A DNA stretch of 64,000 nt from Patescibacteria group bacterium (GCA_018902845.1 JAHIPV010000020.1:10810-74809); one strand, 5' to 3'. Shown: positions 14,470 to 35,810, counted from the stretch's first letter. The notes: generated by a model not told the origin, from the sequence alone. Program-made: numbers and translations.

Positions 14470-14471
14470 AT

Positions 14472-20109: not shown

Positions 20110-20250
20110 AATGCAATCATATCATCTTAATTAAATAATCATATCATTTTAATTAAATAATCATATCATTTTGATATGATTATTGAGGGTAAATGATGTG
20201 ATTTGGGAAATTTTTTTTGGAGAAGATAGGGGGATAGTATAATTATAAGA
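20110..20250. promoter_or_regulatory. Divergent intergenic region with direct repeats (TAATTAAATAATCATATCATTTT x2-3) and a palindrome AATCATATCATTTTGATATGATTA
   Basis: Read directly from the sequence. It lies between the divergent Fic and GT-C genes. Confidence 0.4.
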
Positions 20251-22422: not shown

Positions 22423-23202
22423 ATGAAAGTGATTATTTTGTGTGGTGGAATGGGAACGAGGTTGAGGGAAGAGACTGAGTTTAGGCCGAAGCCGATGGTG
22501 TTTATTGGTAATAAGCCGATGCTCTGGCATATTATGAAAATATATGCACATTATGGTTTTAACGAGTTTATATTAGCATTGGGATATAGGGCTGATTATA
22601 TAAAGCGGTTTTTTTTGGACCAAAAGGCATATACCTCTGATTTTATTTTAGATACTAAAACATGTAAAAGAAGATTTTTTTTGCAGAGCAGGAATAATGT
22701 TGATGATTTTAAGATAACCTTTGTGGATACGGGTTTGGAGACGTTGGTAGGTGAGAGAGTCTTGAGGTGTCGGAGGTATGTTCCGGATGCCGATAGAAAT
22801 TTTATGGTAACTTATGGTGATGGAGTTGCAGACGTAAACATTAAAAAGTTGCTTGATTTTCATAAGAAACAAAAGACTTTGGGTACGATTTTGGGTATTC
22901 ATTCAAGGTCAAAATTTGGAGTATTAAAGGTTGATAAAAATAATTTAATTAAGATGTTTTCTGAAAAACCGGTAACAAATAATTGGGTTAATGGGGGTTT
23001 TATGGTTTTCAAGAAGGAGGCCTTCAATTATTTTAAACTAGGAATTTCGGAACATCCGGTGCTAAAATCTTTGGCAAAAGAAGACCAGTTGTCTGTTTAT
23101 AAACATGAAAGTTTTTGGTTTGCTATGGATACTAATAAAGAGATGGTAACATTAAATAATTTGTGGTTGTTAGACAAACCTCCATGGAAAATATGGAAAT
23201 AA
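22423..23202 (+). CDS. rfbF: Glucose-1-phosphate cytidylyltransferase
   Basis: MKVIILCGGMGTRLREETEFRPKPMVFIGNKPMLWHIMKIYAHYGFNEFILALGYRADYIKRFF, a full-length match to the RfbF/DdhA pattern. Confidence 0.85.
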   Translation: MKVIILCGGMGTRLREETEFRPKPMVFIGNKPMLWHIMKIYAHYGFNEFILALGYRADYIKRFFLDQKAYTSDFILDTKTCKRRFFLQSRNNVDDFKITFVDTGLETLVGERVLRCRRYVPDADRNFMVTYGDGVADVNIKKLLDFHKKQKTLGTILGIHSRSKFGVLKVDKNNLIKMFSEKPVTNNWVNGGFMVFKKEAFNYFKLGISEHPVLKSLAKEDQLSVYKHESFWFAMDTNKEMVTLNNLWLLDKPPWKIWK

Positions 23203-24170
23203 ATAAAAAATTTAATGGTAAAAATGTTTTAGTAACTGGTGGAACGGGTTTTGTGGGATCACATTTAATAGAAGAACTGGTTAAACAAGGAGCTAATGTT
23301 GTAACTACTTTTGAGTACACTGATCCTTATTCATATTTTATGAAGAAGGAATTGGATAAAAAAGTAACTATGGCTAATGTTGATGTTGGTCATTTTGATA
23401 AAGTTTTTGATTTGGTAACTAAGTTTGAGGTTGAATATATTTTTCATTTAGCAGCACAAGCAATTGTTACTACAGCTTATAGTAATCCAAGGAGAACTCT
23501 AGAATCAAATATAATGGGAACTACAAACATATTAGAAAGTGCTAGGCTTTATTCAAAAATAAAAGCGGTGGTGGTAGCTTCTTCAGATAAAGCTTATGGA
23601 AAGTTGGGAATTAAAAAAAATACTTATATTGAAACTGATCCTCTTAAGGGAGATCATCCTTATGATGTTTCAAAATCGGCCACTGACTTAATTGCTAATA
23701 TGTATTTTAAGACTTATCAAGTGCCAGTTGCAACAACTCGTTTTGGCAATATTTATGGTGAAGGAGACAATAATCCTTCACGGATAATACCTGGGATTAT
23801 GACTTCATTAATTAATAATGAAAAATTAGAATTGAGAAGCGATGGAAAAGCAGTAAGGGATTATTTATACGTTAAAGATGTTGTGAATGGTTATCTAATG
23901 TTGGCAGAGAAAATAAACAAAACTAAAGGTGAATCTTTTAATTTTGGGTCTAGTGATACTCTTTCAGTAATTGAGCTAATTGAAGAAATTCAAAAAGCAC
24001 TAAAAGTGAAAGTTCCTTATAAGGTTTTAAATATTGCTAAGAATGAAATACCATATCAATCATTGAATTATGAAAAGATTAAAAAAATTGGTTGGAAAAA
24101 TAAAGAAAATGTAAAAACTACCACAGAGAGAATTTATAAATGGTACGAGCAAATAATTGAAAAAGATTAA
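23184..24170 (+). CDS. rfbG: NAD-dependent NDP-sugar 4,6-dehydratase, probably CDP-glucose 4,6-dehydratase
   Basis: Rossmann motif NVLVTGGTGFVGSHL and an extended-SDR Y-x3-K (DVSKSATD). It follows rfbF with an overlapping start. Its A-ending codon usage differs from neighbouring genes. Confidence 0.65.
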   Translation: MENMEINKKFNGKNVLVTGGTGFVGSHLIEELVKQGANVVTTFEYTDPYSYFMKKELDKKVTMANVDVGHFDKVFDLVTKFEVEYIFHLAAQAIVTTAYSNPRRTLESNIMGTTNILESARLYSKIKAVVVASSDKAYGKLGIKKNTYIETDPLKGDHPYDVSKSATDLIANMYFKTYQVPVATTRFGNIYGEGDNNPSRIIPGIMTSLINNEKLELRSDGKAVRDYLYVKDVVNGYLMLAEKINKTKGESFNFGSSDTLSVIELIEEIQKALKVKVPYKVLNIAKNEIPYQSLNYEKIKKIGWKNKENVKTTTERIYKWYEQIIEKD

Positions 24171-24184
24171 AAGTTAAATAATTT

Positions 24185-25720
24185 ATGAAAAAAAATATAC
24201 GCGAAATATTTAAACTTGTTGTTTCAACTGTTAAACCTTTATTTATTTTGGAAATGGCGAATAATCATATGGGTGATGTTGGGCATGGTTTAAAAATAAT
24301 TAGAGAATTTCATAAAATAACCAAGAAATTTGATTTTCATTTTGCTTTCAAGTTTCAGTATCGAAACATAGACACCTTTATCCATCCTGAGTATAAAAAC
24401 AGAATGGATATAAAGTATGTTAAACGGTTTTCGGAAACTCGGCTTAGCCCAAGTGAATTTTTGAGTCTAAAAAAAGAAGCTGAAAGTTTGGGGTATATCA
24501 GTATTTGTACACCGTTTGATGAGGAGTCTGTCGATTTGATAGAAAAGCATAATTATTCGGTTATAAAAGTTGGTAGCTGTTCTTTTGCTGACTGGCCATT
24601 ATTGGAAAGAATTATTAAAGTGGATAAACCGGTGGTGCTATCCACTGGTGGGGCGAGTTTACAAGATATAGACAATGTGGTTTCATTTTTTCATCATAGG
24701 AAAAAGAAATTTGCAATTATGCATTGCGTGGGGGAATATCCGACGGTGGCAGAAAATCTTCAATTAAACCAGATTACCTTTTTTAAGAATAGATACGCTG
24801 ATGTGGTGGTGGGTTTTTCGACACACGAAGATCCGGATGATTTTGTTCCAGTCCAGTTAGCGGTTGCAAAAGGTGCCCAGATTTTTGAAAGACATGTGGC
24901 CATAAAGACCAAGAAATATGATATTAATGCTTATTCCTCTCTTCCCAGTCAAGTGGAAAGTTGGCTTGTCGCCGCTCAAAGAGCAATAAAAATCGGAGGA
25001 GTGGTAGAAGAGAGAGTTGATCATAGTAAAAAAGAGATGGTGGATATCAGACAATTTAAGAGGGGTGTTTTTGCTAAAAGATCTTTTAAGAAAGGGGAAC
25101 TTATTAAGACAGAGGATGTATTTTTTGCCTTTCCCAATCAACTAGGCCAATTAGTTGCAAATCAGATATCTAAATACAAGTATTATTATGCTAAAAAAGC
25201 AATAAAGAAAAACGGAGTTATAAAAGATGTGCGGTTGGACGACACCAGAGAGGAAGTGTATGCCATAGTTAAAAGGATTGATAAACTTTTTAAGAAAAGT
25301 GGTGTTGTATTTCCCAACAGAGTTGATTTGGAAATATCTCATCATTACGGGCTTGATAAATTTGATAAGTATGGGATTTGTATGGTGACTTGTGTTAATA
25401 GAGGTTATTGTAAAAAATTAATAATCATGTTTCCCGGTCAGTTACATCCCGAACAATATCATCGCAAAAAAGAAGAAACATTTCATGTTTTGTATGGTAA
25501 GTTTATTGTTTGGTTAAACGATAAGAAACATATTTTTTTACCAGGTGACGTGGTTGTTATAGAGCCTACTGTCAGACATCGTTTTACTACGGTAAATGGG
25601 GGCATTCTCGAGGAAATTTCCTCGACCCATTTTGTTAATGATTCTTTTTATATCGATGAAAAGATTTCTTTGAATAAGAATAGGAAGACCCATGTTCGTT
25701 ATTGGAGAAACGTGGTTTAA
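24185..25720 (+). CDS. NeuB/PseI/SpsE-family sugar-acid (sialic-acid-type) synthase fused to a C-terminal cupin domain
   Basis: N-terminal TIM barrel (FILEMANNHMGDVGHGLKIIREFHKITKKFDFHFAFKFQ), a SAF-like segment (GELIKTEDVFFAFPNQ), then about 180 extra residues with cupin-like H/E/H content (MFPGQLHPEQYHRKKEETFHVLYGKF...GDVVVIEPTVRHRF). Confidence 0.65.
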   Translation: MKKNIREIFKLVVSTVKPLFILEMANNHMGDVGHGLKIIREFHKITKKFDFHFAFKFQYRNIDTFIHPEYKNRMDIKYVKRFSETRLSPSEFLSLKKEAESLGYISICTPFDEESVDLIEKHNYSVIKVGSCSFADWPLLERIIKVDKPVVLSTGGASLQDIDNVVSFFHHRKKKFAIMHCVGEYPTVAENLQLNQITFFKNRYADVVVGFSTHEDPDDFVPVQLAVAKGAQIFERHVAIKTKKYDINAYSSLPSQVESWLVAAQRAIKIGGVVEERVDHSKKEMVDIRQFKRGVFAKRSFKKGELIKTEDVFFAFPNQLGQLVANQISKYKYYYAKKAIKKNGVIKDVRLDDTREEVYAIVKRIDKLFKKSGVVFPNRVDLEISHHYGLDKFDKYGICMVTCVNRGYCKKLIIMFPGQLHPEQYHRKKEETFHVLYGKFIVWLNDKKHIFLPGDVVVIEPTVRHRFTTVNGGILEEISSTHFVNDSFYIDEKISLNKNRKTHVRYWRNVV

Positions 25721-25727
25721 TTTTGTG

Positions 25728-26591
25728 ATGAGAGTGCTTATAACCGGGGGAACCGGCTTTATTGCCAGAAATTTATTTGAGCAGTTGAAAGATAAGTATA
25801 ATGTAATTTGTTTGGGGAGAAAGAAGCTTAACCTTTTGAATTTTGGTAGAGTTTTAGCTTATATAAAGAGTAACAGATTTGATGTGGTAATACATACGGC
25901 TACATATGATGTGGCGCCAAAACATTCGGTAAAAGACCCATCTAAGGTTTTGGAATATAATTTAAAAATGTTTTTTAATTTGACCAGATGTAAAGATTAT
26001 TTTGGTAAGATGATTTATTTTGGTTCAGGGGCGGAGTATTGTCGGGAAAACTGGAAGCCGAGGATGAGGGAGAGTTATTATGACAAATATGTGCCAATGG
26101 ATCAATATGGGTTTTCCAAATATTTGATGACAAAGCATACACAATTAAGCGATAATATTTATAATCTTCGGTTGTTTGGAATGTTTGGTAAATATGATGA
26201 TTGGAGAACAAGACTTATTCCAAATGTGTGTTATCGTGCCGTGATGAATTTACCAATTGTTATAGATCAAAATAAATTTTATGATTTTTTGGATGTTAAT
26301 GATTTGGTAAAAATTGTAAGTTGGTTTATTGACAATAATCCTCAAGAGAAGGTTTACAATGTTTGTACAGGCAAGGCGATTGCTTACAAATCATTAGTTG
26401 AAAAAATAATTAAGATATCGGGTAAAAATTTGAGTTTTCGAATAAAGAATAAAGCCTTGGGGAGGGAATATAGTGGAGATAACGACTTGCTCATGAAGGA
26501 ATTGAAGGGTTTTGAGTTTATTCCGATTGATGAATCAATAAAATCATTATATGATTGGTATAATCAAAATAAGATGAAAATTTTTATATGA
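25728..26591 (+). CDS. Short NAD(P)-dependent sugar epimerase/4-ketoreductase (RfbS/RfbJ-like size)
   Basis: MRVLITGGTGFIARNL, about 288 aa. The start is probably Met at 25728 rather than the predicted 25692. Confidence 0.65.
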   Translation: MRVLITGGTGFIARNLFEQLKDKYNVICLGRKKLNLLNFGRVLAYIKSNRFDVVIHTATYDVAPKHSVKDPSKVLEYNLKMFFNLTRCKDYFGKMIYFGSGAEYCRENWKPRMRESYYDKYVPMDQYGFSKYLMTKHTQLSDNIYNLRLFGMFGKYDDWRTRLIPNVCYRAVMNLPIVIDQNKFYDFLDVNDLVKIVSWFIDNNPQEKVYNVCTGKAIAYKSLVEKIIKISGKNLSFRIKNKALGREYSGDNDLLMKELKGFEFIPIDESIKSLYDWYNQNKMKIFI

Positions 26592-27085
26592 ACATAGATG
26601 AATCAATAAAATTTATTGAGAAGCAAATAGGAGATCCAAAACTGGGTTTGCCAGAGGAGGTGTTTTTTTTTGCCAGTAGGATTGTGCCGATGGTTAATGT
26701 TGATTTATTAATAAAGGATGAAAAGAAACGGATTTTGTTGGCGTGGAGGGATGATCAATATGCGGGAGCAGGGTGGCATGTCCCTGGGGGAATAGTTCGT
26801 TACAAGGAAAATTGGGAACAAAGAGTGAGAAAGGTGGCAGAAATGGAGATTGGAATGATGGTTGAATTTGATCTTAGGCCAATTGCTTTCAATCAAATTT
26901 TCCTTGATCATAAAACACGAGGGCATTTTATTTCAATATTATTTAGATGTTTTTTGTCAGGTAAGTTTATTCCAAAAAACGAAGGGTTAAAGCAAGATGA
27001 CGTGGGTTATTTGAGGTGGCATGATACTTGCCCAAAAAACTTAGTTGAAGTGCAAAAGATATATAGGAAATTTATAAAAAGATGA
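26588..27085 (+). CDS. NUDIX-like hydrolase (degenerate Nudix box; GDP-mannose mannosyl hydrolase-like)
   Basis: GWHVPGGIVRYKENWEQRVRKVAEMEIGM matches G-x5-E-x7-R...E...G only partially. Confidence 0.45.
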   Translation: MNIDESIKFIEKQIGDPKLGLPEEVFFFASRIVPMVNVDLLIKDEKKRILLAWRDDQYAGAGWHVPGGIVRYKENWEQRVRKVAEMEIGMMVEFDLRPIAFNQIFLDHKTRGHFISILFRCFLSGKFIPKNEGLKQDDVGYLRWHDTCPKNLVEVQKIYRKFIKR

Positions 27086-27137
27086 GAAGAAAGAGGCGTC
27101 GCTTTATTCAACAGTGTAAAAATATGGAGAGTATGCG

Positions 27138-28277
27138 ATGAAGATTAATGTTTGCAGGGTATGTGGCCAAAAGTTTTTTGATAAATCTTTGTTGGTATAT
27201 AAAAATATGCCGGCGGTAGCACAAAACTTTCCAGACGAAAAATCTTTGAAAAGTGATATGGGAATTGAAATGAAGGTGTATCAGTGTAGCGGTTGTGGCT
27301 TGGTTCAGTTAAGTAATGAGCCGGTGTCTTATTATAAGGAGGTGATACGAGCGGTAGCGTTTTCTCCGGAAATGAGAAATTTTCGGGTTAAACAATTTGG
27401 GGATTTTGTAAAAAAATATTCTTTGAAGAATAAAAGAGTGATTGAGATAGGTTGCGGTAAGGGCGAATATTTGTCGATTATGAAACAGTGTGGAGTGTCG
27501 GTATACGGGTTGGAACAATCAACGGAATCGGTTAGTCGGTGTGTGAAAGATGGATTGAAAGTTTTTCAAGGATTTGTTAAAGACAGTAGATATAAAATAA
27601 AAAATGCTCCCTATGATGCCTTTTTTATTTTGAGTTTTTTAGAACACTTACCTGATCCAAATTCAGTTCTCGGTGGTATATGTGATAATTTGTCGGATAA
27701 TGCGGTTGGAATTATTGAAGTACCTAACTTTGATATGATTTTAAAACAGAATCTTTTTTCCGAGTTTACCAGAGATCATTTGTTTTATTTTACAAAAGAT
27801 ACTTTGGTAAGATTGTTGGGTTTAAATGGTTTTGATGTTATTGGTTGTCGGGTGGTGTGGCATGAGTATATAATTTCGGCGATTGTTAAAAAGAGGGCAA
27901 GAATATCGGTTGAACATTTTTATAAAAAACAAGAAAAACTTAAGCTGGAGATTAGTCGGTATATAAGTAGATTTAAGGATAATAAAGTTGCCATATGGGG
28001 GGCCGGACATCAGTCGTTGGCTGTTATGGCTATGTTGGACTTGGCTGGTAAGATTAAATATGTGGTCGATTCGGCGCCCTTTAAACAGGGTAAATATACT
28101 CCGGCGACACATATTCCAATAGTTTCACCTGAAACACTTAACTTGGATCCAGTGGCGGGTCTGATTGTGATGGCGGCCAGTTATTCGGATGAGGTGGTAA
28201 GTATTTTGCGAAAGAGGTTTGATAAAAATTTTTCTATTTCTGTGGTGAGAGACTATGGTTTGGAAATAATCAGATAA
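27138..28277 (+). CDS. NDP-hexose C-methyltransferase (TylCIII/EryBIII-type: Zn-ribbon + class I SAM MTase + C-methyltransferase C-terminal domain)
   Basis: N-terminal C-x2-C...C-x2-C (VCGQ...CSGCGL), a SAM-binding motif VIEIGCGKGEY, and a long C-terminal domain. Confidence 0.7.
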   Translation: MKINVCRVCGQKFFDKSLLVYKNMPAVAQNFPDEKSLKSDMGIEMKVYQCSGCGLVQLSNEPVSYYKEVIRAVAFSPEMRNFRVKQFGDFVKKYSLKNKRVIEIGCGKGEYLSIMKQCGVSVYGLEQSTESVSRCVKDGLKVFQGFVKDSRYKIKNAPYDAFFILSFLEHLPDPNSVLGGICDNLSDNAVGIIEVPNFDMILKQNLFSEFTRDHLFYFTKDTLVRLLGLNGFDVIGCRVVWHEYIISAIVKKRARISVEHFYKKQEKLKLEISRYISRFKDNKVAIWGAGHQSLAVMAMLDLAGKIKYVVDSAPFKQGKYTPATHIPIVSPETLNLDPVAGLIVMAASYSDEVVSILRKRFDKNFSISVVRDYGLEIIR

Positions 28278-28347
28278 TTGCAATTTATGAAATTTTTTTA
28301 TGGGGGGATGTATAATAGGAACAGTTAGAGTTTAAAAGATAAATAAT

Positions 28348-29436
28348 ATGCCTATTAGATTAGAGCGGGGGCTTACACAAGCGGAAGTAAAAGGTAGGGC
28401 TAGGTTGGCTGAGAAAAAGCCGGCGGTAGCCGAGAAGTATGAGTTGTTTGACGCTAGGGTTGAAGAAGGGAAAAGTAATGCAATAATTCAATTTCAAGTT
28501 GACTATAGGTGTAATTTTCGTTGTGAGCATTGCTGTATAACAGGATTACGAAGATCGAGACAAGAAGAGAGTTTTGATGTGGGTAAGGTTAGAGATCTGG
28601 CAGATCAAGCCGACGAAATGGGGTTGGCGGAATTTGTAATTACCGGGGGAGAGCCTCTAATTATCCCCTGGTACGATGAATTGGTAGAGGCGATTGGTCC
28701 GGATCGGTTCTATATAGCCTCTGATACCAATGGGTGGTACCTGGATGAAAAAATGGCAAAGCATTTGGTTGATATAGGAGTAGATAAGACCCAGATTAGT
28801 CTTGATAGTTTATCAGCGGATGAGCATGATGCTTTTAGAAGACATAAAGGAGCTCATGAAAGAGCCGTTAGGGGAATAAGAGCATCTTTAGATGCGGGTT
28901 TAAGTACTTTGGTGCAGACCGTAGTGACCCGCGATAGGATAAGATCATCGGAGTTTGAAGGTTTTTTAAAATTTATCAATGAGATGGGGGCGCCGGTGTT
29001 TGTAACTTATGCTAAGCCTGTTGGTGCTTGGGAAAGGAATTACGGTGCTATGGTAAGTAGGGCTGATATGGATTATATGCGGGAGTTGGAGGAAAAATAT
29101 AGAGTTTTTACACATTTGACACCTGCCTATGGTTGGGATTTGGGTTGTATTGCGGTAAAGAGAATGATTTCGGTTACGCAATATGGTGATGTGATGCCGT
29201 GTCCATACACACATATTTCGTTGGGGAATGTTTTTGACGAGTCATTGGAAGAGATTGTTGAAAGAGGTATGAAAATTAGACATTTTGGGGAGCATAGGGA
29301 TACATGTTTAATGGCGGAAGATGTAATGGCAAGGCCGGGAGGTTTTGTTAAAGAGTATATTGAGCCTAGGGTGTATGATAAGGTGTTACCGGTACCCTGG
29401 AATCAGGTATTTATGGATGAAGATTTTATTAAGTGA
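28348..29436 (+). CDS. Radical SAM enzyme
   Basis: CNFRCEHCC (CxxxCxxC) near the N-terminus, plus a glycine-rich SAM motif VITGGEP. G+C is noticeably higher than in flanking genes. Confidence 0.75.
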   Translation: MPIRLERGLTQAEVKGRARLAEKKPAVAEKYELFDARVEEGKSNAIIQFQVDYRCNFRCEHCCITGLRRSRQEESFDVGKVRDLADQADEMGLAEFVITGGEPLIIPWYDELVEAIGPDRFYIASDTNGWYLDEKMAKHLVDIGVDKTQISLDSLSADEHDAFRRHKGAHERAVRGIRASLDAGLSTLVQTVVTRDRIRSSEFEGFLKFINEMGAPVFVTYAKPVGAWERNYGAMVSRADMDYMRELEEKYRVFTHLTPAYGWDLGCIAVKRMISVTQYGDVMPCPYTHISLGNVFDESLEEIVERGMKIRHFGEHRDTCLMAEDVMARPGGFVKEYIEPRVYDKVLPVPWNQVFMDEDFIK

Positions 29437-30331
29437 AATTAAACCAAAAATAAAAGCTTTTGTTTTTGATTTTGATGGTACGATAAAAAGTTCTAAAGAA
29501 CCGGATTGTTTGCCGTTGGAACTAATAGAAAGAATTGTGTCTGCCGGTAAAAAAGTGGCAATTGTGACTGCTTCTGGAGTATCGGCATTGAATGGTTTAG
29601 GGCAACAAATAACAAGGTTATTGTTGGAGGGTAATTATTCGACGAGGGTATATTTGGGAATTGCCAATGGAATGGGTCTGTATGGATTGGATAAACAGGG
29701 AAAATGCGAGTTATATAGTTATCCAATAGAGATTATTGATGTTAAAAAGATTTTGAAGGCTTGGGAAAAGGCGGTAAGTTTAGTTGGGATTAAAGACGAA
29801 GATTTAGTGGAGAAGGGACTGACAACATTCAAGAGGTTTTTAGAAAAAGATTGGGGAAGGTACATCCCGAAGGATTATTTGTCATTGGTTAAAAGCCGGA
29901 AGGGAAAATGTTTTGCGGAGAGGTTGAAGGTGACATTGGTTATGCCCAGAAGTGAGGTCTTTTCTCAAGTGGAATTTGTGAGAATGGTACAGGAAGAAAT
30001 AGATAAATTGACGGGTAAGGAGAAATTTGTGATAGAGACGGGTGATGATGTTTTTGCCCATGTGACTTGTTGGCCGAGGATGGAACCGAAGTTGTTTGCT
30101 TTAAATAGGATTAAGCTGGAGTTAGAGTTGAAAGATAGGGAGTTGGTTGTTTTTGGTGATATGCCATTTGGTAATGATAGAGGAATGTTGATAGACAGTA
30201 ATTTACCTTATACCTTTACTAATAGATATTTTAAAAAGAAGGATGTTAAAAAACCACCCTATTTTTTATCGGGACTAGCGGAGAGGCCGGTGTTGAGCGT
30301 TTACCGAGCTGTTAATTATTTGATAAACTAA
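29417..30331 (+). CDS. HAD-superfamily hydrolase/phosphatase
   Basis: Motif I FVFDFDGTI. The start is probably ATG at 29417, overlapping the radical SAM stop. Confidence 0.6.
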   Translation: MKILLSEIKPKIKAFVFDFDGTIKSSKEPDCLPLELIERIVSAGKKVAIVTASGVSALNGLGQQITRLLLEGNYSTRVYLGIANGMGLYGLDKQGKCELYSYPIEIIDVKKILKAWEKAVSLVGIKDEDLVEKGLTTFKRFLEKDWGRYIPKDYLSLVKSRKGKCFAERLKVTLVMPRSEVFSQVEFVRMVQEEIDKLTGKEKFVIETGDDVFAHVTCWPRMEPKLFALNRIKLELELKDRELVVFGDMPFGNDRGMLIDSNLPYTFTNRYFKKKDVKKPPYFLSGLAERPVLSVYRAVNYLIN

Positions 30332-30361
30332 AACTATAATTATAAATTGGGATATATTAAT

Positions 30362-32026
30362 ATGAAACTGAGTGATTATGTATTTAAATTTTTAGAAGAT
30401 TATACAGATATGGTTTTTTTACTTTCCGGTGGTGGAATAATGCATTTGGTTGATTCTTTGGGTAATTCAAAATTACATGCAATTTGCTGTCATCATGAAC
30501 AAGCATGTGCAATTGCAGCAGAGGGTTATGCTCGAATTAAAAATAAGGTTGGAGTGTCTTTAGTAACTACTGGTCCGGGTGGAACAAACGCAATTACCGG
30601 AGTGGCTGGAGCATGGCTAGACAGTATTCCGATGTTAGTTATTAGTGGTCAAGTTAAGACTGGTGATATAACTCCCAAAGTAAGGGGTATCCCAATAGTT
30701 AGGGCTACTGGTTTTCAAGAATTAAATGTGGTTGATTTAGTTAAACCAATTACTAAATATGTTGTAACAATAAATAAACCAAATGAAATTAAGTATCAGT
30801 TGGAGAAGGCTTTATATTTGGCTACAAATGAACGTCCAGGGCCGGTTTGGGTAGAAATACCATTGGATATTCAGACTGTTGAAATTGATATTAGAAAATT
30901 AAAAGGATTTAAAAAACCATTAATTAAAAAAAATTACCAGAGCGAAAAAATTAATTTAATTGCAAAAAAACTTAATGAGGCAAAAAGACCATTGTTAATG
31001 GTCGGAAATGGAACAAGATTAGTTGGTGGGGAAAAAATATTACAAAAAATACTGGATAAATTAAAAATTAATGCAGTTACACCGATTTTTACGGCTGATG
31101 ACTTAGTAACAAGTGATTATTTATATTATTTAGGTAGGCAAGGAATGCCTGGTAATGAAACCGCAAATTGGGCAATGGATAATTGTGATTTATTGTTGAT
31201 TATTGGTGAAAGAATGCAACTAACACAGGTATCTTATGATTATAAAAAATTTTCACCAGATGCTTTTAAAATTATGGTGGATATTGATGAAAATGAGATA
31301 AATAAAAAAACACTAAAGATTGATTTGCCTGTATGTATGGATGCTAAATTGTTTTTGGAAGAATTATTTAAAAAAGATATTAAATTAAATAGGTGGAATG
31401 TTGAAGTTAAGCCAATAAATGTCAAAAAATATGAAAGCAGTGGAAATTTTGTAAATGTTTATAGTTTTTTTGAAGGACTTAATAAAAATATATTTGGACT
31501 TAATATAGCAACTACCAATGGAATGGCCAGTGTGGCGACTCACCAGGCTATAAAAATAAAAAATGGACAACGTATTATTACTAATGCTGGATTAGGTCAT
31601 ATGGGATCAGGATTACCTTTAGCCATTGGGGTTTGTTTAGCCTCAGGTAAATCCCCTACTATTTGTATGGAGGGCGATGGTTCACTTATGCTTAATATTC
31701 AAGAATTGCAGACGATAATTTATCATAAGTTACCGATAAAAATATTTATTTTTAACAATGGCGGTTATTATTCCATTAGAAATACGCATCAAAATTATTT
31801 TCAGAGGGTTTTTGCGGCTGATGTAAAAAGTGGGCTTAGCTTACCTGATTTTGAAAAATTAACAAAAGGATGGGGTTTAAAGTATATTAAAATTGCCAAT
31901 AATAAAGAGATTTATAAAATCAAGAAGGTTATTGATTATCCGGGTCCGATTGTTTGTGAGCTTATAATTGATCCTCAACAAAAGATGTTACCAAAGTGGT
32001 CTGCCGGTAATTTAAAAGAAAATTAA
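30362..32026 (+). CDS. Thiamine-diphosphate-dependent enzyme of the acetolactate-synthase large-subunit family (YerE-like sugar two-carbon branching enzyme candidate)
   Basis: N-terminal Pyr domain (SLVTTGPGGTNAITGVAGAWLDSIPMLVISGQV) and a C-terminal TPP motif (MEGDGSLMLNIQELQT ... NNGGY). Confidence 0.75.
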   Translation: MKLSDYVFKFLEDYTDMVFLLSGGGIMHLVDSLGNSKLHAICCHHEQACAIAAEGYARIKNKVGVSLVTTGPGGTNAITGVAGAWLDSIPMLVISGQVKTGDITPKVRGIPIVRATGFQELNVVDLVKPITKYVVTINKPNEIKYQLEKALYLATNERPGPVWVEIPLDIQTVEIDIRKLKGFKKPLIKKNYQSEKINLIAKKLNEAKRPLLMVGNGTRLVGGEKILQKILDKLKINAVTPIFTADDLVTSDYLYYLGRQGMPGNETANWAMDNCDLLLIIGERMQLTQVSYDYKKFSPDAFKIMVDIDENEINKKTLKIDLPVCMDAKLFLEELFKKDIKLNRWNVEVKPINVKKYESSGNFVNVYSFFEGLNKNIFGLNIATTNGMASVATHQAIKIKNGQRIITNAGLGHMGSGLPLAIGVCLASGKSPTICMEGDGSLMLNIQELQTIIYHKLPIKIFIFNNGGYYSIRNTHQNYFQRVFAADVKSGLSLPDFEKLTKGWGLKYIKIANNKEIYKIKKVIDYPGPIVCELIIDPQQKMLPKWSAGNLKEN

Positions 32027-32031
32027 TTTAT

Positions 32032-32970
32032 ATGGAAAAGAAAAAGATAACTATTGGAGTCCCATGTTTTAATGAAGAGAAAAATGTAATTAATATGTAC
32101 AATAAATTGAAATGTGTAGTAGAAAAAATAAAGAAATATAAATTTGAATTTTTATTTGTAGATAATGGCAGTAGTGATAAAACCAGGGAAAAAATAATGT
32201 TTTTGACTAAAAAGGATAAAAATGTAAAAGGAGTATTTTTGTCTCGTGATTTTGGACCCGAAGGTTCTGGTGCAGCTATTTTATATAATACTAATTCAGA
32301 TGGATTAATTATTGTCGCTTGTGATTTTCAAGATCCACCGGAATTAATTTCTAAATTTATAAAAAAATGGGAAGATGGCTATGAAGTTATTTTGGGTCAA
32401 TATAATAAAATAGAAGATTCTCCTTTTATGACTTTAATGAGAAAGATGTTTTATAAGTTGTTTAAGAATATATCAAATATAGATGTTCCAATAAATGTAA
32501 CTGGATTTGGATTGTTAGATAAAAAGGTTATTGATGCGATGAAATCATTACCAGAAAAATTTAGATTTGGTAGAGGCTTAATTTCTTGGGTTGGTTTTAA
32601 AAGAATTTTTGTATCCTACGAAAGACAAAAAAGGGAAAATGGGAAAAGTTCGTATGATTTTTTTGCTTATGTAAAACATTCCGAGCGAGGTGTTTTTGGA
32701 TTTTCTTATCTTCCGTTAGACTTAATAGTTTATGTTGGTTTTATAATAACCATTCTTTCTTTCTTGTTTGTTATTGGTTATTTGTTTACAGTCTTTGTCT
32801 TTGGAAATCCAATAAATGCATCAATACCAATTTTATTGGCAATAGTATTTTTTGGTGGAGTTAATTTAATGGCATTAAGTATTATTGGAAAATATATTCA
32901 GGTAATAGTAGAAGAGACAAAAAATAGACCCATGTATATTGTTGATAAAAAAATAAATTTTAAAAACTAA
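32032..32970 (+). CDS. GtrB/ArnC-like GT2 polyprenyl-phosphate sugar transferase with C-terminal TM helices
   Basis: ITIGVPCFNEEKNV ... FVDNGSSDKT, plus two C-terminal TM helices. Confidence 0.75.
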   Translation: MEKKKITIGVPCFNEEKNVINMYNKLKCVVEKIKKYKFEFLFVDNGSSDKTREKIMFLTKKDKNVKGVFLSRDFGPEGSGAAILYNTNSDGLIIVACDFQDPPELISKFIKKWEDGYEVILGQYNKIEDSPFMTLMRKMFYKLFKNISNIDVPINVTGFGLLDKKVIDAMKSLPEKFRFGRGLISWVGFKRIFVSYERQKRENGKSSYDFFAYVKHSERGVFGFSYLPLDLIVYVGFIITILSFLFVIGYLFTVFVFGNPINASIPILLAIVFFGGVNLMALSIIGKYIQVIVEETKNRPMYIVDKKINFKN

Positions 32971-32973
32971 TTT

Positions 32974-34233
32974 ATGAAAAAAAAATTTATACCAGGTGAA
33001 ACATATGTTTCAGTTTCAGGGAAAGTGTTTGATAAAGAGGAAATTAACAACGCCATAGAGGCGGCAAAGGATGGATGGTGGACGGAAGGGCGGTTTGCAT
33101 TGAAATTTGAGGAAAAATTTAAAAAGTATTTAGGAGTTAAACATGTCTCGTTGGTTAATTCTGGTTCATCGGCAAATTTAGTGGCCTTAGCGGCGCTGAC
33201 ATCGGACTTATTTGGTGAAAAGAGACTTAAGGCCGGTGATGAGTTTGTGACGACGTCGGTGGCTTTTCCGACGACGGTTAATCCGGGTATTCAGTATAGA
33301 TTAAAGCCGGTGTTTGTTGATGTTGGGGTTGGAGATTTAAATATTGATATGGCAAAGATTGAAAAGGCGATTACAAAAAAGACCCGGTTAATTATGCTGG
33401 CTCATACTTTGGGTTTTCCCTTTGATTTGACCGAAGTGATGCGTTTAGTAAAAAAGTATGATTTGTGGTTGATTGAGGACTGCTGTGATGCTTTGGGGAC
33501 GAAATATGGTAATAAGTACGTGGGTCAGTATGGCCATATAGCAACATTTAGTTTTTATCCGGCTCATCATATAACGATGGGAGAAGGGGGGGCGGTGATT
33601 ACCAACAATCGGTTGATTCATAAGGCAATTAGGCGGTTTAGGGACTGGGGGAGGGACTGTTGGTGTGGGACAGGTCAGGATAATAGTTGTGGTAGGAGAT
33701 TTAAATGGAAACTGGGTGAGTTGCCGTATGGTTATGATCATAAATATATTTATTCTGAGTTGGGGTACAATCTTAAACTGACAGATTTTCAAGCGGCAAT
33801 TGGAGTGGCTCAGTTAAAAAAACTGCCGGGTTTTATAAAAAAGCGACGAGCTAATTACAAGAAATTATATGAGTTTTTTAAAAAATATGAAGAATATTTT
33901 GTGTTGATGCGGGAGGATGAAAAGACAGAGGTGTCGTATTTTGGTTTTCCGATAGTGGTAAAGAGTGGAGCGCCTTTTACCAGAAATGAAATGTCTGAAT
34001 ATTTGGAGAAGAATAAGGTGGGGACTCGGAATGTGTTTACCGGGAATTTATTAAGACATCCCGCGTATGTAGACTTGCGGAAGAGTTTTAGATTAGTGGA
34101 GGGGATGGAAAACGCTGATGCTATTATGAACAATGCATTTTGGATTGGAGTGTGGCCGGGGATTGATGGAGTGAGGATGAAGTATATGAAGATGGTGATA
34201 ACGAAATTTCTTAAAACGCAGGGGATTTTTTAG
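32974..34233 (+). CDS. rfbH: CDP-6-deoxy-L-threo-D-glycero-4-hexulose 3-dehydrase (E1, DegT-family PMP enzyme with Fe-S cluster)
   Basis: His replaces the PLP-binding Lys (SFYPAHHITMGEGG), and a C-x-C-x7-C cluster motif is present (DCWCGTGQDNSC). Both are E1 hallmarks. Confidence 0.8.
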   Translation: MKKKFIPGETYVSVSGKVFDKEEINNAIEAAKDGWWTEGRFALKFEEKFKKYLGVKHVSLVNSGSSANLVALAALTSDLFGEKRLKAGDEFVTTSVAFPTTVNPGIQYRLKPVFVDVGVGDLNIDMAKIEKAITKKTRLIMLAHTLGFPFDLTEVMRLVKKYDLWLIEDCCDALGTKYGNKYVGQYGHIATFSFYPAHHITMGEGGAVITNNRLIHKAIRRFRDWGRDCWCGTGQDNSCGRRFKWKLGELPYGYDHKYIYSELGYNLKLTDFQAAIGVAQLKKLPGFIKKRRANYKKLYEFFKKYEEYFVLMREDEKTEVSYFGFPIVVKSGAPFTRNEMSEYLEKNKVGTRNVFTGNLLRHPAYVDLRKSFRLVEGMENADAIMNNAFWIGVWPGIDGVRMKYMKMVITKFLKTQGIF

Positions 34234-34262
34234 AGAAAGAATTTTGTGGACAGAAGGTTGTT

Positions 34263-35810
34263 TTATTGGTTTTGCAGTTCACAGGGAATTGTGAGTATTT
34301 GTTGATTCCAATTAGGTTTGCCAATGGGGCAGTAATCTGGCATTAAGTCAGTGACCGGACTGAATATGATTGGTTTATTTTTAATAACATAATCTGATAA
34401 TTTCTCGGTATAATTGGGATAAACCGATTTGTTAATACCTAACCAGTTGACATACATGGGGTGGAAATTTATTGTGTTTGGTTTAAGGGTGCCGTAAATT
34501 GCATCCGGGCCGTTGGTAATGATGTTTTTTTCGGGATAAGTGTTGATGATGTCAAAAGCGTTGTTGTAAAATAAAACCTCATCCATGCTCATCTTCATGT
34601 GCTTTAATGTTGGTAGTTGGGTGGTGTAATAGACGGTTTGAAGTTTTGTAACAGCGTTAGACATTCTGATAGATATTTCCAAATAAATGATAGGTAATAG
34701 GAGAATAATTAATGTGATAGCGGAAATGATTTTATTGGGTTTAGTTTTATTAAAAATAAACATGTGTTGAAAATCATGGACAAATTTTGGCAATAGGCCC
34801 ATCATGGGAGTGGCGGCCCAAAAAAGGTGTCTGAAACATGGGACCGGATAATATTGCATCCAAGAGGAAATTGAGACAAGAGATAGTATTATTTGAACGT
34901 TGTCGGAATTATTGCTTTGATGACGTATTTTTTTTATTATAGATCTTAATAGATAAAGCACAGAGAAGATTGGTAGTAATTTCCAAAGTGAAAGAATGCC
35001 GACTGAATTGGTAAAAAGGTTTTGAAAAATAACCTTGATTTGAAAGTTTTGACCAACGGTTCGACCGAAGACAACAGCTGACACGATGGATTGTAGCCAC
35101 CAGTCGTGGAAAGCCCCATTGATGGTAATCCATGACAATATAGGGATAGATATGGTTAACAGACCAAGGATGATAAAGATTGTTTCTCTAAAAACGGTAT
35201 GTAGTTTTGTTTTGTTTTTTGGAAGAGTTAGTAAAAATGATAAATATGAAAATATTAGGAGAAATATACCGACTGGCTGTCTTGTCCAAAAAGTCGCACC
35301 GATAGTTATGCCTGAAAAAAATAGATATTTATGGCGATGTTTTTGTAAGCTAAGGATTAAAAAATAGAGGGTCAAGACCAAGAAAAAAAGAGAGTAAACC
35401 GAGGACCAAGGTAGAAATAGGTATATGTAAAATGGGGCCATGGCTAACCAAATTAAACAAGAGAGTAAAGATAACCATTTTTTTTCGTAAATAGTCCAAA
35501 TTTTAAATAGAAAAAATGAAGTAAGGGCGTAGAAAAAAGATGTTTGGAGTTTAATAACTATTAAGTATTTACCAAAAATCAGCAAAGATAATGATTGTAG
35601 GATGGTAAGTAGGGCACCATATTGGGTATATGAATTTTTAAAGAGTATTTTGCCTTCAAGTAAGTCTATGGCTGGTTTAAAGACGATACCGTCGTGGTGT
35701 GGATCAACTCCAATTCTAGAAAAGATGGCGGAGATCAAGAAGGTGAAAATGGCGACAGATAGGGGTAGCGCTTGAGTAGTAAAAAATTTTTTGATGTTGA
35801 GTTTTTTCAT
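34263..35810 (-). CDS. Polytopic membrane protein, GT-C-fold glycosyltransferase-like (ArnT/PMT family)
   Basis: 515 aa with about 12 TM helices. It sits beside the GtrB-like GT2. Confidence 0.5.
   Translation of the reverse strand: MKKLNIKKFFTTQALPLSVAIFTFLISAIFSRIGVDPHHDGIVFKPAIDLLEGKILFKNSYTQYGALLTILQSLSLLIFGKYLIVIKLQTSFFYALTSFFLFKIWTIYEKKWLSLLSCLIWLAMAPFYIYLFLPWSSVYSLFFLVLTLYFLILSLQKHRHKYLFFSGITIGATFWTRQPVGIFLLIFSYLSFLLTLPKNKTKLHTVFRETIFIILGLLTISIPILSWITINGAFHDWWLQSIVSAVVFGRTVGQNFQIKVIFQNLFTNSVGILSLWKLLPIFSVLYLLRSIIKKIRHQSNNSDNVQIILSLVSISSWMQYYPVPCFRHLFWAATPMMGLLPKFVHDFQHMFIFNKTKPNKIISAITLIILLLPIIYLEISIRMSNAVTKLQTVYYTTQLPTLKHMKMSMDEVLFYNNAFDIINTYPEKNIITNGPDAIYGTLKPNTINFHPMYVNWLGINKSVYPNYTEKLSDYVIKNKPIIFSPVTDLMPDYCPIGKPNWNQQILTIPCELQNQ

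What the first reader, a model, noticed from the sequence alone, without database searches (positions are those of the whole stretch)
22423..34233. Compositional and codon-usage mosaic within a single operon
By eye there are three different compositions inside the one operon. The radical SAM + HAD block (28348-30331), rfbH (32974-34233) and to a lesser extent the C-MT (27138-28277) are visibly G+C-richer, about mid-40s percent, with G/C-ending codons. rfbG, the TPP enzyme and the GtrB-like GT2 are very A-rich with A-ending codons (tta, gca, gga, aca). The surrounding genome and rfbF show the host-typical G+T-rich style (ttg, gtg, ttt). This points to piecewise horizontal assembly of the pathway from at least three donors
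Basis: seen in the sequence. Interest (0 to 1): 0.55.

Follow-up and report, generated by a model that had tools for sequence, protein, structure and literature searches.

The report
Mosaic sugar operon in a Parcubacterium
An 11-gene sugar-synthesis operon in a tiny uncultured (CPR/Parcubacteria) bacterium is a conserved cassette in which a few genes were swapped in place for copies from other lineages, a known kind of gene exchange that is documented here unusually clearly.

Summary

**Composition.** After controlling for strand and amino-acid content, rfbG, the TPP enzyme and GT2 have the three lowest GC3 values of 72 genes (0.18-0.21; z -4.7 to -6.4). rfbH is the highest of the + strand genes (0.42; z +4.8). 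The radical SAM, HAD-like and C-MT genes are host-like at synonymous sites. The radical SAM gene is G+C-rich only at codon positions 1 and 2. Change points fall near gene starts: 0.36 | 0.17 | 0.35 | 0.20 | 0.43.

**Not assembled piecewise.** Ten of the 11 genes co-occur in at least 40 genomes of more than 15 phylum-level groups. A syntenic sister genome carries the same operon with uniform GC3 (0.30-0.36).

**In-place replacement.**
- TPP and rfbG are 77-81% identical to a 27-28% G+C relative lineage. Neighbouring genes are 51-73% identical to it.
- The radical SAM gene is a distant xenolog: 51-54% identical to clade-mates that are 71-92% alike among themselves.
- rfbH has an internal recombination breakpoint near codon 96 (p<0.0005).

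**Verdict.** This is a mosaic operon formed by in situ gene displacement, a new member of a known kind.

The parts
22423..23202 (+). rfbF-like glucose-1-phosphate cytidylyltransferase; host-like GC3 (.358).
   Evidence: Matches Pfam NTP_transferase. Its best NCBIfam match is TIGR02623, at 260 bits, below the 300-bit cut-off. z(GC3) is +1.2. It is 64% identical to L098.
23193..24170 (+). rfbG-like CDP-glucose 4,6-dehydratase; a low-GC3 gene, probably replaced by a copy from a low-G+C relative.
   Evidence: GC3 is .175-.182, z -5.8. It is 81% identical to L098 (28% G+C), against 64% and 73% for its two neighbours. Its C-terminal 97 aa are 83% identical to L098 and 71% to sister L100. The codon likelihood ratio favouring the low-G+C lineage is +20.9.
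23199..24348 (+). First low-GC3 tract (GC3 .172). It covers rfbG and about the first 55 codons of NeuB-cupin.
   Evidence: Change points fall at 23199 (log-likelihood gain 14.5) and 24349 (11.0). The first 50 codons of NeuB-cupin have GC3 .18, against .24-.42 for the later 50-codon bins.
24185..25720 (+). NeuB-family synthase fused to a cupin domain. It looks resident, but has an unusually weak third-position G/C skew.
   Evidence: Pfam NeuB plus Cupin_2. Trio informative sites are 41/49/49, a trichotomy. C3 is .109 and the codon log-likelihood z is -3.9.
25728..26591 (+). Short-chain dehydrogenase/reductase of the epimerase family; a candidate YerF-like reductase; host-like composition.
   Evidence: Pfam Epimerase. 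z(GC3) is +0.9.
26588..27085 (+). NUDIX hydrolase; resident.
   Evidence: Pfam NUDIX. Trio counts are about equal.
27138..28277 (+). Sugar C-methyltransferase; resident, host-like codon usage.
   Evidence: Pfam Methyltransf_23/_14/_13. z(GC3) is +1.8. Trio counts are 57/48/35.
28348..29436 (+). Radical SAM/SPASM enzyme. A xenolog sitting in the orthologous position; host-like GC3; G+C-rich at codon positions 1 and 2.
   Evidence: It is 51-57% identical to all CPR copies, while L100, L097 and L098 are 71-92% alike. At 97-99 sites the two relatives agree against the window. It grouped with CPR loci in 0 of 200 bootstraps. The best homolog anywhere is 62% identical. GC12 is .452, 4.3 sd above the ortholog regression.
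29417..30331 (+). HAD-like hydrolase (DxDGT motif). Found only in the CPR versions of the cassette; GC3 is host-like or slightly high.
   Evidence: It has no Pfam hit and only a weak match to TIGR01484 HAD-IIB. The motif is visible in the translation. Orthologs are seen only in L071, L072, L082 and L097-L100.
30362..32026 (+). Thiamine-diphosphate enzyme (YerE-like, inferred). Low GC3; replaced by a copy from the low-G+C relative lineage.
   Evidence: GC3 is .207, z -6.4. It is 80% and 77% identical to L097 and L098, against 71% to sister L100. Trio sites are 73 vs 23, p=3e-7. GC12 implies a source of about 26% G+C. The codon likelihood ratio is +20.1. The best solved structure is 8rph.
32032..32970 (+). 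GT2 glycosyltransferase (GtrB-like). Low GC3; its source is not resolved by phylogeny.
   Evidence: GC3 is .182, z -4.7. GC12 implies a source of about 24% G+C. The codon likelihood ratio is +19.4. However, its closest homolog is sister L100, at 78% identity and 99% bootstrap.
30373..33047 (+). Second low-GC3 tract (GC3 .196). It covers TPP, GT2 and about the first 25 codons of rfbH.
   Evidence: Change points fall at 30373 (log-likelihood gain 27.1) and 33048 (16.6).
32974..34233 (+). rfbH (CDP-6-deoxy-4-hexulose 3-dehydrase, E1). It has the highest GC3 of the + strand genes and is an intragenic mosaic with a breakpoint near codon 96 (about nt 33262).
   Evidence: It scores 624 bits against NCBIfam RfbH, above the 423-bit cut-off. 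GC3 is .419, z +4.8. Left of the breakpoint the window agrees with L100 at 18 sites and with L113 at 4. Right of it the window agrees with L113 at 59 sites and with L100 at 13. Max chi-square is 31, with 0 of 2000 permutations reaching it. Third-position identity to L113 rises from .43 to .61-.67.

Best explanation
The operon is an old, widely distributed cassette for a CDP-activated, probably branched 3,6-dideoxyhexose. This Parcubacteria (CPR) lineage inherited it as a unit.

Within the intact operon, individual genes or short tracts were later overwritten by homologous copies from other genomes. This is in situ gene displacement, most likely by recombination between diverged copies of the same cassette.

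- Two tracts came from a relative with about 27-28% G+C and still carry its A/T-ending codons. They are rfbG with the start of NeuB (23199-24348), and TPP with GT2 and the start of rfbH (30373-33047).
- The 3' three-quarters of rfbH came from another relative, similar to L113.
- The radical SAM gene was replaced earlier by a distant ortholog. Its synonymous sites now look like the host's.

**Shown:** the composition classes, the conservation of the cassette, the uniform sister operon, the discordant similarities, and the breakpoint inside rfbH.

**Inferred:** the direction and timing of the transfers, recombination as the mechanism for the low-GC3 tracts, and the identity of the sugar.
For: **Host.** NCBI names for exact-match proteins are 'Candidatus Parcubacteria bacterium' and 'Patescibacteria group bacterium'.

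**The cassette is conserved.**
- Orthologs of 10 of the 11 genes cluster around the rSAM ortholog in most of 80 loci. These come from Nitrospirota, Omnitrophota, Elusimicrobia, Firestonebacteria, Planctomycetes, Bacteroidales, Fibrobacteres, Lentisphaerae, Thermotogae and Patescibacteria, among others.
- In those genomes GC3 is even across the cassette. The sd of the per-gene deviation is .03-.05.
- TPP and rfbG orthologs tend to be slightly high, +.026 and +.017. Low GC3 is therefore not a property of these families.

**The sister operon is uniform.**
- Sister contig L099/L100 has 35.1% G+C and the same strand skew.
- It has the same gene order, through PMT_2, DUF6311, MT, GT2 and further downstream genes.
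- Its GC3 is .30-.36 throughout: TPP .347, GT2 .304, rfbH .324.

**A low-G+C lineage matches the atypical genes.**
- Relatives L097 and L098 (27.5% and 28.3% G+C; GC3 .15-.20) hold the closest TPP, at 80% and 77%, and the closest rfbG, at 81%.
- Their other cassette genes are only 51-73% identical to the window.
- Trio informative sites for TPP: the window agrees with L097 at 73 sites and with L100 at 23 (p=3e-7).
- NeuB, NUDIX and C-MT give roughly equal counts.
- Only rfbG, TPP and GT2, of 27 + strand genes, clearly fit the low-G+C lineage's codon preferences better than the host's (+19 to +21 log units). One small non-operon gene, 13109-13702, is marginally positive at +2.1.
- Codon positions 1 and 2 of TPP and GT2 also imply a source of 24-26% G+C.

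**rSAM.**

**rfbH breakpoint.**

**Not an assembly artefact.** The sequence is 100% identical, or within one mismatch, in all 13 contigs compared. These come from NCBI, ENA, JGI and Logan assemblies of several samples.
Against: - No donor with near-identical DNA was found. The closest relatives of the low-GC3 genes are 77-81% identical in protein, so the actual donors are unsampled and the direction of transfer is inferred.
- GT2 groups with the G+C-normal sister L100 (78% identity, 99% bootstrap), not with the sampled low-G+C contig L101 (70%).
- Bootstrap support for TPP grouping with L097/L098 to the exclusion of L100 is only 72%. The trees are neighbour-joining, not maximum likelihood.
- No higher-G+C source explains the GC3 of rfbH. 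Its best relative, L113, has GC3 .367.
- The rSAM of L100 also has raised GC at codon positions 1 and 2. The '57% G+C source' implied for the window's rSAM is therefore weak.
- The HAD-like gene leans towards the low-G+C lineage (44-46 vs 23-26 sites, p about 0.02) yet has host-like GC3. This is unexplained.
- The baseline consists only of about 90 kb of glycan-related and accessory genes, with no housekeeping genes.
Confidence: 0.7

Rival explanations
1. Piecewise assembly. The pathway was put together in this genome by successive acquisition of unrelated gene blocks from three or more donors.
For: There are several composition classes with sharp boundaries near gene starts. Gene affinities are discordant.
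Against: The same gene set is clustered in at least 40 genomes of many phyla. The same order, extending into the flanking genes, is present in sister genome L099/L100. The atypical genes sit exactly where their orthologs sit in the relatives.
Confidence: 0.08
2. Selection rather than transfer. Codon usage of rfbG, TPP, GT2 and rfbH was tuned within the operon, for example for translation rate or mRNA stability, without any gene exchange.
For: The genes are co-transcribed in tight spacing, so differential translation could be useful (spacing). No mobile-element scars lie at the boundaries.
Against: The sister operon is uniform. Orthologs in about 50 other genomes show no such pattern. Non-synonymous positions of TPP and GT2 are shifted the same way. 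Protein similarity itself is discordant for TPP, rfbG, rSAM and rfbH.
Confidence: 0.06
3. Normal variance. The per-gene differences are within what this genome shows anyway.
For: Other window genes are also low, for example 8081-8491 (GC3 .21) and 10299-11690 (.25). Minus-strand genes reach .44-.45. rSAM, HAD-like and C-MT are indeed within the range.
Against: The three lowest of 72 genes all lie in one operon. Their z values are -4.7 to -6.4, against an sd of 1.7. All four change points are significant.
Confidence: 0.04
4. Metagenome assembly chimera. Reads from co-occurring low-G+C relatives were spliced into the contig.
For: The source is a metagenome-assembled genome, and relatives with the same cassette occur in the same sample series (L113 and L098 from the ENA ERZ2724/ERZ2725 series). 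Fragmented assemblies break near 27076-27090, 30305-30320 and 34223.
Against: All 13 contigs compared, from NCBI, ENA, JGI and Logan assemblies of several samples, match the window at 100% or with a single mismatch. Several of them cross the junctions. All reading frames are intact with tight gene spacing.
Confidence: 0.03

Closest known systems
Mosaic operons formed by horizontal transfer and in situ gene displacement (Omelchenko et al. 2003, Genome Biol 4:R55, as cited and applied in PMC2783167)
   Same: The operon architecture is conserved across genomes, while single genes inside it have discordant phylogenetic affinities and occupy the position of the ortholog they replaced. In PMC2783167 homologous recombination within the operon is proposed as the mechanism. 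Here an intragenic breakpoint in rfbH is direct evidence for it.
   Different: The host is a CPR/Parcubacteria genome. Most exchange partners are relatives within the same clade that differ by 7-8 points of G+C, so the replaced tracts are visible as composition steps. Displacement here acts on tracts that cross gene borders, not only on whole genes.
Compositionally atypical, recently acquired genes and their amelioration (Lawrence and Ochman model; from my own knowledge)
   Same: The low-GC3 tracts keep a donor-like codon signature. The rSAM xenolog looks host-like at synonymous sites but not at positions 1 and 2, which is what an older acquisition would show.
   Different: No mobile element, tRNA gene or repeat marks the tract ends. 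The amelioration reading for rSAM is weakened because the sister's rSAM also has raised GC at positions 1 and 2.
O-antigen and other surface-polysaccharide gene clusters, known for atypical G+C and recombinational mosaicism (from my own knowledge)
   Same: It is a nucleotide-sugar pathway with rfbF/rfbG/rfbH genes inside a very large glycan-synthesis region. It shows gene-level composition differences and exchange between related lineages.
   Different: There is no evidence here for serotype-like polymorphism within the population. All contigs of this population are identical. The acceptor of the sugar is unknown.
Gene clusters for acyl-branched 3,6-dideoxyhexoses: yersiniose, erwiniose, caryophyllose (PMC9306805)
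   Same: Genes for the CDP-4-keto-3,6-dideoxyglucose acceptor (rfbF, rfbG, rfbH) lie next to a ThDP enzyme, an NAD(P)H-type reductase and a SAM methyltransferase. PMC9306805 describes this layout.
   Different: A NeuB-cupin fusion stands where those clusters have a pyruvate aldolase. The cassette also has a radical SAM/SPASM enzyme, a NUDIX hydrolase and, in CPR, a HAD-like hydrolase. No E3 reductase gene was seen. The product is unknown.

Membership tests
Mosaic operon by in situ gene displacement | The operon's gene set and order are conserved in other genomes. | tested here: met
   Ten of 11 genes cluster in most of 80 loci. The same order, including flanking genes, is present in L099/L100.
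Mosaic operon by in situ gene displacement | Individual genes of the operon have phylogenetic affinities that disagree with their neighbours. | tested here: met
   rSAM is an outlier at 97-99 sites against 24-33. TPP gives 73 vs 23 sites. NeuB, NUDIX and C-MT form a trichotomy. See also the pairwise matrices and the neighbour-joining bootstraps.
Mosaic operon by in situ gene displacement | The displacing gene occupies the position of the displaced ortholog, and the operon stays intact. | tested here: met
   rSAM, TPP and rfbG sit in the same relative positions as in L098 and L100. Reading frames are intact, with gene gaps of 70 nt or less or small overlaps.
Mosaic operon by in situ gene displacement | There are recombination breakpoints in or next to the replaced genes. 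| tested here: met
   rfbH has a breakpoint near codon 96, with max chi-square 31 and 0 of 2000 permutations reaching it. For the low-GC3 tracts there are only composition change points, not sequence breakpoints.
Recent horizontal acquisition recognised by atypical composition | Synonymous-site composition lies outside the resident range. | tested here: met
   rfbG, TPP and GT2 have z -4.7 to -6.4 and are the lowest three of 72 genes. This is not met for rSAM, HAD-like or C-MT.
Recent horizontal acquisition recognised by atypical composition | A candidate donor lineage has matching composition and closest similarity. | tested here: inconclusive
   Met for TPP and rfbG: L097 and L098 have 27-28% G+C and are 77-81% identical. 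Not met for GT2, whose closest homolog is the G+C-normal L100. No near-identical donor was found.
Recent horizontal acquisition recognised by atypical composition | The resident baseline is taken from the whole genome, including housekeeping genes. | not testable with these tools
   Only about 90 kb of this genome could be reached, all of it glycan-related or accessory genes.
Acyl-branched 3,6-dideoxyhexose pathway (YerE type) | Genes are present for the CDP-4-keto-3,6-dideoxyglucose acceptor (cytidylyltransferase, 4,6-dehydratase, E1 and E3). | tested here: inconclusive
   rfbH passes the NCBIfam RfbH cut-off. rfbF and rfbG have the right best matches but score below the cut-offs. No E3 (AscD/RfbI-type) reductase gene was recognised in the operon.
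Acyl-branched 3,6-dideoxyhexose pathway (YerE type) | A ThDP enzyme transfers an acyl branch to the 4-keto sugar. | not tested
   A three-domain TPP enzyme is present. It is closer to PDB 8rph, 'thiamine pyrophosphate-binding protein' (E 3e-101), than to acetolactate synthases. The identity of 8rph and the enzyme's activity were not checked.

The most novel reading that the evidence does not exclude
Related Parcubacteria lineages that differ by 7-8 points of genomic G+C may routinely exchange kilobase-sized pieces of one shared surface-sugar cassette by homeologous recombination. Under this reading the operon acts as a shuffling hotspot for diversifying an as yet undescribed branched sugar. 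That sugar would be made by a cassette combining NeuB-cupin, a radical SAM enzyme, a ThDP enzyme and a C-methyltransferase, spread over more than 15 phyla. Recombination would then be an important and measurable force in CPR genome evolution, and the cassette would point to a new widespread glycan.
Probability: 0.25. Interest if true: 0.55.

Novelty: new member of a known kind. Interest (0 to 1): 0.35.

Why it matters
Gene-by-gene replacement inside intact operons is a known route of bacterial evolution. Clean cases with a uniform sister operon, an identified donor-like lineage and an intragenic breakpoint are uncommon. I found none reported for CPR bacteria in the one literature search I ran on this, but that search was not exhaustive.

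The case shows that these small-genome, uncultured organisms exchange DNA with relatives at the surface-glycan locus.

It also carries a practical warning. In a genome with extreme strand skew, composition scans must be strand-matched and conditioned on amino-acid content. Otherwise they call the wrong genes foreign. Here, total G+C flags rSAM for a reason unrelated to codon usage. Conversely, codon usage alone does not flag rSAM as foreign.

Tried and rejected
- **Strain-level comparison.** Every contig that carries these proteins is 100% identical to the window or differs by one mismatch. This gave no population-level information.
- **Near-identical variant contig.** Proteins P0001 and P0138, from a near-identical JGI contig, are not on record for contig look-up.
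- **Metagenome scan with GT2.** It found nothing closer than 70% identity and missed known relatives.
- **Apparent GT2 variant with a different 3' end (P0127, L114).** This is an assembly artefact. The tail is an inverted copy of window 33081-33175.
- **Apparent absence of GT2 and rfbH from several NCBI genomes.** This was suggested by consecutive protein accessions. It is only an annotation gap, because the DNA is identical.
- **Promoter and terminator scan.** Promoter-like sites were 54 against 50.9 expected, and terminator-like sites 11 against 6.4 +/- 2.3. This does not help to define transcription units.
- **Repeat search.** There are no repeats, insertion-sequence remnants or tRNA-like landmarks at the tract ends.
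- **'rSAM plus HAD' as one foreign block.** Rejected. The HAD-like gene is 55-60% identical to clade-mates, in line with a fast-evolving resident gene. rSAM alone is the outlier.
- **A 57% G+C source for rSAM from codon positions 1 and 2.** Downgraded, because the sister's different rSAM type is also high at those positions.

Full report
**What is there**

The interval 22423-34233 holds eleven same-strand genes with small gaps or overlaps.
- rfbF-like cytidylyltransferase
- rfbG-like 4,6-dehydratase
- a NeuB-family synthase fused to a cupin domain
- a short-chain reductase
- a NUDIX hydrolase
- a sugar C-methyltransferase
- a radical SAM/SPASM enzyme (rSAM)
- a 304-328 aa protein with a DxDGT motif, which is HAD-like with only a weak family match
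- a three-domain thiamine-diphosphate (TPP) enzyme
- a GT2 glycosyltransferase
- rfbH

These assignments rest.

Exact-match proteins are named by NCBI as 'Candidatus Parcubacteria bacterium' or 'Patescibacteria group bacterium'. The host is therefore a CPR bacterium.

The whole window, plus about 16 kb beyond it on both sides, encodes glycan-synthesis genes interspersed with toxin-antitoxin, Fic, NYN and ATPase genes. No housekeeping gene is within reach.

**Background composition**

The window is 34.2% G+C with an extreme strand asymmetry: G is 22.8% and C is 11.4% on the + strand. GC skew is positive in every 1-kb bin, whatever the gene orientation.

Third-position G and C therefore depend on gene strand. 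In + strand genes G3 is about .28 and C3 about .06, and minus-strand genes show the reverse. Any codon test has to be strand-matched.

**Check of the observation**

Raw GC3 along the operon is .358.182.309.327.337.345.372.389.207.182.419. The window mean is .334 with sd .060. Sixteen more genes of the same genome range .285-.423.

I simulated each gene from its own amino acids and the pooled synonymous preferences of the other same-strand genes.

| Gene | z(GC3) |
|---|---|
| rfbG | -5.8 |
| TPP | -6.4 |
| GT2 | -4.7 |
| rfbH | +4.8 |
| rSAM | +1.9 |
| HAD-like | +2.2 |
| C-MT | +1.8 |

The sd of z among non-operon genes is 1.7. The other extremes are -3.9, -3.4 and +3.2.

Binary segmentation of third-position G+C gives change points at 23199, 24349, 30373 and 33048. 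The segments have GC3 .360 | .172 | .346 | .196 | .434. Two change points lie within a few codons of the rfbG and TPP starts. The other two lie 55 and 25 codons inside NeuB and rfbH.

- The 'G+C-richer' genes are 36.6-42.5% G+C, not mid-40s.
- Only rfbH stands out at synonymous sites.
- The G+C of rSAM, the highest in the window, comes from codon positions 1 and 2 (.518 and .386).

**Is low GC3 a property of these gene families? No.**

An alignment of rSAM homologs retrieved 80 loci from species-representative genomes. In most of them, orthologs of rfbF, rfbG, NeuB-cupin, the reductase, NUDIX, C-MT, TPP, GT2 and rfbH lie beside the rSAM gene.

The loci come from Nitrospirota, Omnitrophota, Elusimicrobia, Firestonebacteria, Planctomycetes, Bacteroidales, Fibrobacteres, Lentisphaerae, Thermotogae and Patescibacteria, and from one MAG labelled Methanosarcinales. 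The pathway is therefore an old, widely spread cassette, not something assembled in this genome.

Within those cassettes GC3 is even, with an sd of per-gene deviation of .03-.05. TPP and rfbG orthologs tend to be slightly above the cassette mean. The window's deviations of -.13, -.10, -.13 and +.11 are 3-4 times that spread.

**The decisive comparators**

The TPP search gave a graded series of closer homologs (80, 77, 75 ... 71%). The rSAM has nothing above 62% among 5.8 billion proteins. I fetched three contigs.

*L099/L100, the sister genome.*
- It is a 274-305 kb contig with 35.1% G+C and the same strand skew.
- It has the same gene order, from rfbG through rfbH and on through the minus-strand PMT_2, DUF6311, methyltransferase and GT2 genes.
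- Its cassette is compositionally uniform, with GC3 .295-.360: TPP .347, GT2 .304, rfbH .324.

*L097 and L098, the low-G+C lineage.*
- They carry the cassette in 27.5% and 28.3% G+C backgrounds, with GC3 .15-.20 in every gene.

Identity of the window's genes to these comparators:

| Gene | Low-G+C lineage (L097/L098) | Sister L100 |
|---|---|---|
| TPP | 80% / 77% | 71% |
| rfbG | 81% (L098) | only the last 97 aa available |
| rfbF (neighbour of rfbG) | 64% (L098) | not available |
| NeuB (neighbour of rfbG) | 73% (L098) | 75% |

Over the last 97 residues of rfbG, the only part available in L100, identity is 83% to L098 and 71% to L100.

Informative-site counts in trios of window, low-G+C relative and sister:

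| Gene | Window agrees with low-G+C relative | Window agrees with sister | Relatives agree against window |
|---|---|---|---|
| NeuB (L098) | 41 | 49 | 49 |
| NUDIX (L098) | 20 | 14 | 21 |
| C-MT (L098) | 57 | 48 | 35 |
| TPP (L097) | 73 | 23 | 44 |
| TPP (L098) | 68 | 36 | 49 |
| rSAM (L098/L097) | 24 | 31-33 | 97-99 |

- NeuB, NUDIX and C-MT form a trichotomy.
- The TPP bias is significant (p=3e-7 with L097, p=0.002 with L098).
- For rSAM the window is the outlier.

A likelihood ratio compared the synonymous preferences of the low-G+C lineage with those of the host's + strand genes.
- It is clearly positive only for rfbG (+20.9), TPP (+20.1) and GT2 (+19.4) among 27 + strand genes.
- One small non-operon gene is marginally positive (+2.1). 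All others are -7 to -89.

I also regressed ortholog G+C at codon positions 1 and 2 on host-locus G+C (r .87-.96).
- TPP and GT2 fall at an implied source of 24-26% G+C (z -2.8 each).
- The implied source for rfbG is 30%, and for rfbF 25%.
- NeuB, the reductase, NUDIX, C-MT, HAD-like and rfbH fall at 32-35%.

**rSAM**

The rSAM genes of L100, L097 and L098 are 71-92% identical to one another, like their TPP and NeuB genes. The window's copy is 51-53% identical to them, 55-57% to other CPR copies, and 61-62% to copies in Holophaga, Nitrospirae, Firestonebacteria and a Methanosarcinales-labelled MAG.

In an 81-sequence neighbour-joining tree it never grouped with CPR loci (0 of 200 bootstraps). 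It paired with Holophaga in 64%. Replacement by a distant ortholog on the window's branch is the most economical reading, because the other genes show no long stem shared by L100 and L097/L098.

Its G+C at positions 1 and 2 is 4.3 sd above the regression. The different rSAM type in L100 is also high. I therefore treat the 'high-G+C donor' idea as suggestive only.

**rfbH**

Its closest homolog is L113 (84% identity), from a 34.8% G+C contig with the same skew.

Site patterns switch near codon 96.
- Left of that point the window agrees with L100 at 18 sites and with L113 at 4.
- Right of it the window agrees with L113 at 59 sites and with L100 at 13.
- Max chi-square is 31, and none of 2000 permutations reaches it.
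- Third-position identity to L113 rises from .43 to .61-.67.

This is a direct recombination signature inside the operon. It does not explain why GC3 is as high as .42-.43, since L113's copy is .367.

**Interpretation**

The best reading is in situ gene displacement within a conserved cassette. The concept is that of Omelchenko et al. 2003, cited and applied in PMC2783167.

- The cassette was inherited as a unit.
- Two tracts, together about 3.8 kb, were overwritten from a relative with about 27% G+C.
- Most of rfbH was overwritten from an L113-like relative.
- rSAM was replaced earlier from a distant source.

**Weak points**
- The donors are unsampled, with best matches of 77-81% protein identity.
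- GT2 groups with the G+C-normal sister (78% identity, 99% bootstrap).
- The neighbour-joining bootstrap for TPP is 72%.
- The HAD-like gene leans towards the low-G+C lineage (p about 0.02) but has host-like GC3.
- The baseline lacks housekeeping genes.

**Rivals**
- *Normal variance* is excluded for four genes.
- *Codon tuning by selection* is contradicted by the uniform sister operon, the shift at non-synonymous positions, and the discordant protein similarities.
- *Assembly chimerism* is contradicted by matching sequence, 100% or a single mismatch, in all 13 contigs compared from NCBI, ENA, JGI and Logan assemblies. Several of these cross the junctions.

**Function (inferred)**

rfbF, rfbG and rfbH would make a CDP-4-keto-3,6-dideoxyhexose. 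That compound is the acceptor used by the ThDP enzyme YerE and its relatives in acyl-branched sugar pathways. Those clusters also carry a reductase, an aldolase and sometimes a SAM methyltransferase (PMC9306805).

Here a NeuB-cupin fusion stands where the aldolase would be. The cassette also has rSAM, NUDIX and HAD-like enzymes, and no E3 reductase was recognised. The product is probably an undescribed branched sugar. The GT2 enzyme would hand it on, possibly to the PMT_2-family transferase encoded next door. None of this was tested.

**Verdict**

The finding is a real, well-delimited mosaic operon of a known evolutionary kind, in a poorly studied lineage. It is of moderate interest.

Noticed in passing
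window 1-64000: There is an extreme strand asymmetry: G 22.8% against C 11.4% on the + strand. GC skew is +0.09 to +0.53 in every 1-kb bin, regardless of gene orientation. About half the genes lie on the C-rich strand. Relatives L097-L100 and L113 share this asymmetry, but other CPR loci (L071, L072) do not.
   Followed up: partly
window 1-64000 plus L094 and L095 flanks: About 90 kb of contiguous glycan-related genes sit in a CPR genome. They include many GT1, GT2 and GT4 transferases, methyltransferases, at least six B12-type or other radical SAM enzymes, an ABC-2 exporter pair, Wzy_C-like and PMT-like membrane proteins, and no housekeeping gene.
   Followed up: partly
loci L005-L084: The cassette of rfbF, rfbG, rfbH, NeuB-cupin, reductase, NUDIX, C-MT, rSAM, TPP and GT2 is conserved in at least 40 genomes of more than 15 phylum-level groups. 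Its rSAM enzyme sits on a flat plateau of 54-62% identity to the window across all of them. I found no description of its product.
   Followed up: partly
window 13109-21828: Immediately upstream of the operon lies an accessory island. It holds an AbiEii-type toxin with a small partner gene, two AAA/DUF4143 ATPases, a Fic protein and a 525-aa membrane-like protein with no family match. Several of these genes have low G+C.
   Followed up: no
window 8081-8491 and 10299-11690: Two non-glycan genes (DUF7718; ATPase_2 with DUF234) are the next-lowest GC3 outliers (z -3.4 and -3.9) and are A-ending rich. They may also be imports.
   Followed up: no
window 24185-25720: NeuB-cupin has a much weaker third-position G-over-C skew than its neighbours (G3 .199, C3 .109). 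It also has the least host-like codon usage in the operon by likelihood (z -3.9), although its GC3 is normal.
   Followed up: no
window 32026-34263 (L092 11680-13917): In several NCBI genomes of this population, GT2 and rfbH have no protein records. The accessions for TPP and PMT_2 are consecutive, although the DNA is 100% identical to the window. One other genome annotates both genes.
   Followed up: yes
window ~23500, 27076-27090, 30305-30320, 34223: Fragmented assemblies of the same population break at these points, and two independent assemblies give the same 27076-30305 contig. The break at about 30310 lies next to the composition change point at 30373. This could mean that a co-occurring strain shares only part of the operon.
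   Followed up: partly
L099/L100 5579-9116; L098 6353-8008; L097 1-3403: Relatives carry one or two B12-binding radical SAM genes inserted inside the cassette, between rSAM and HAD-like or before rSAM. The window lacks these insertions. L097 also has an extra HAD_2 gene and no GT2 between TPP and rfbH.
   Followed up: no
window 29417-30331: The HAD-like gene shares more informative sites with the low-G+C lineage than with the sister (44-46 vs 23-26, p about 0.02). Yet its GC3 is host-like or high, apart from a low first 50 codons (.22).
   Followed up: partly
L114 3390-3484: A Logan contig ends with an inverted copy of window 33081-33175 fused to the end of GT2. This produces a false 335-aa GT2 'variant'. 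It is an example of a contig-end artefact entering protein clusters.
   Followed up: yes
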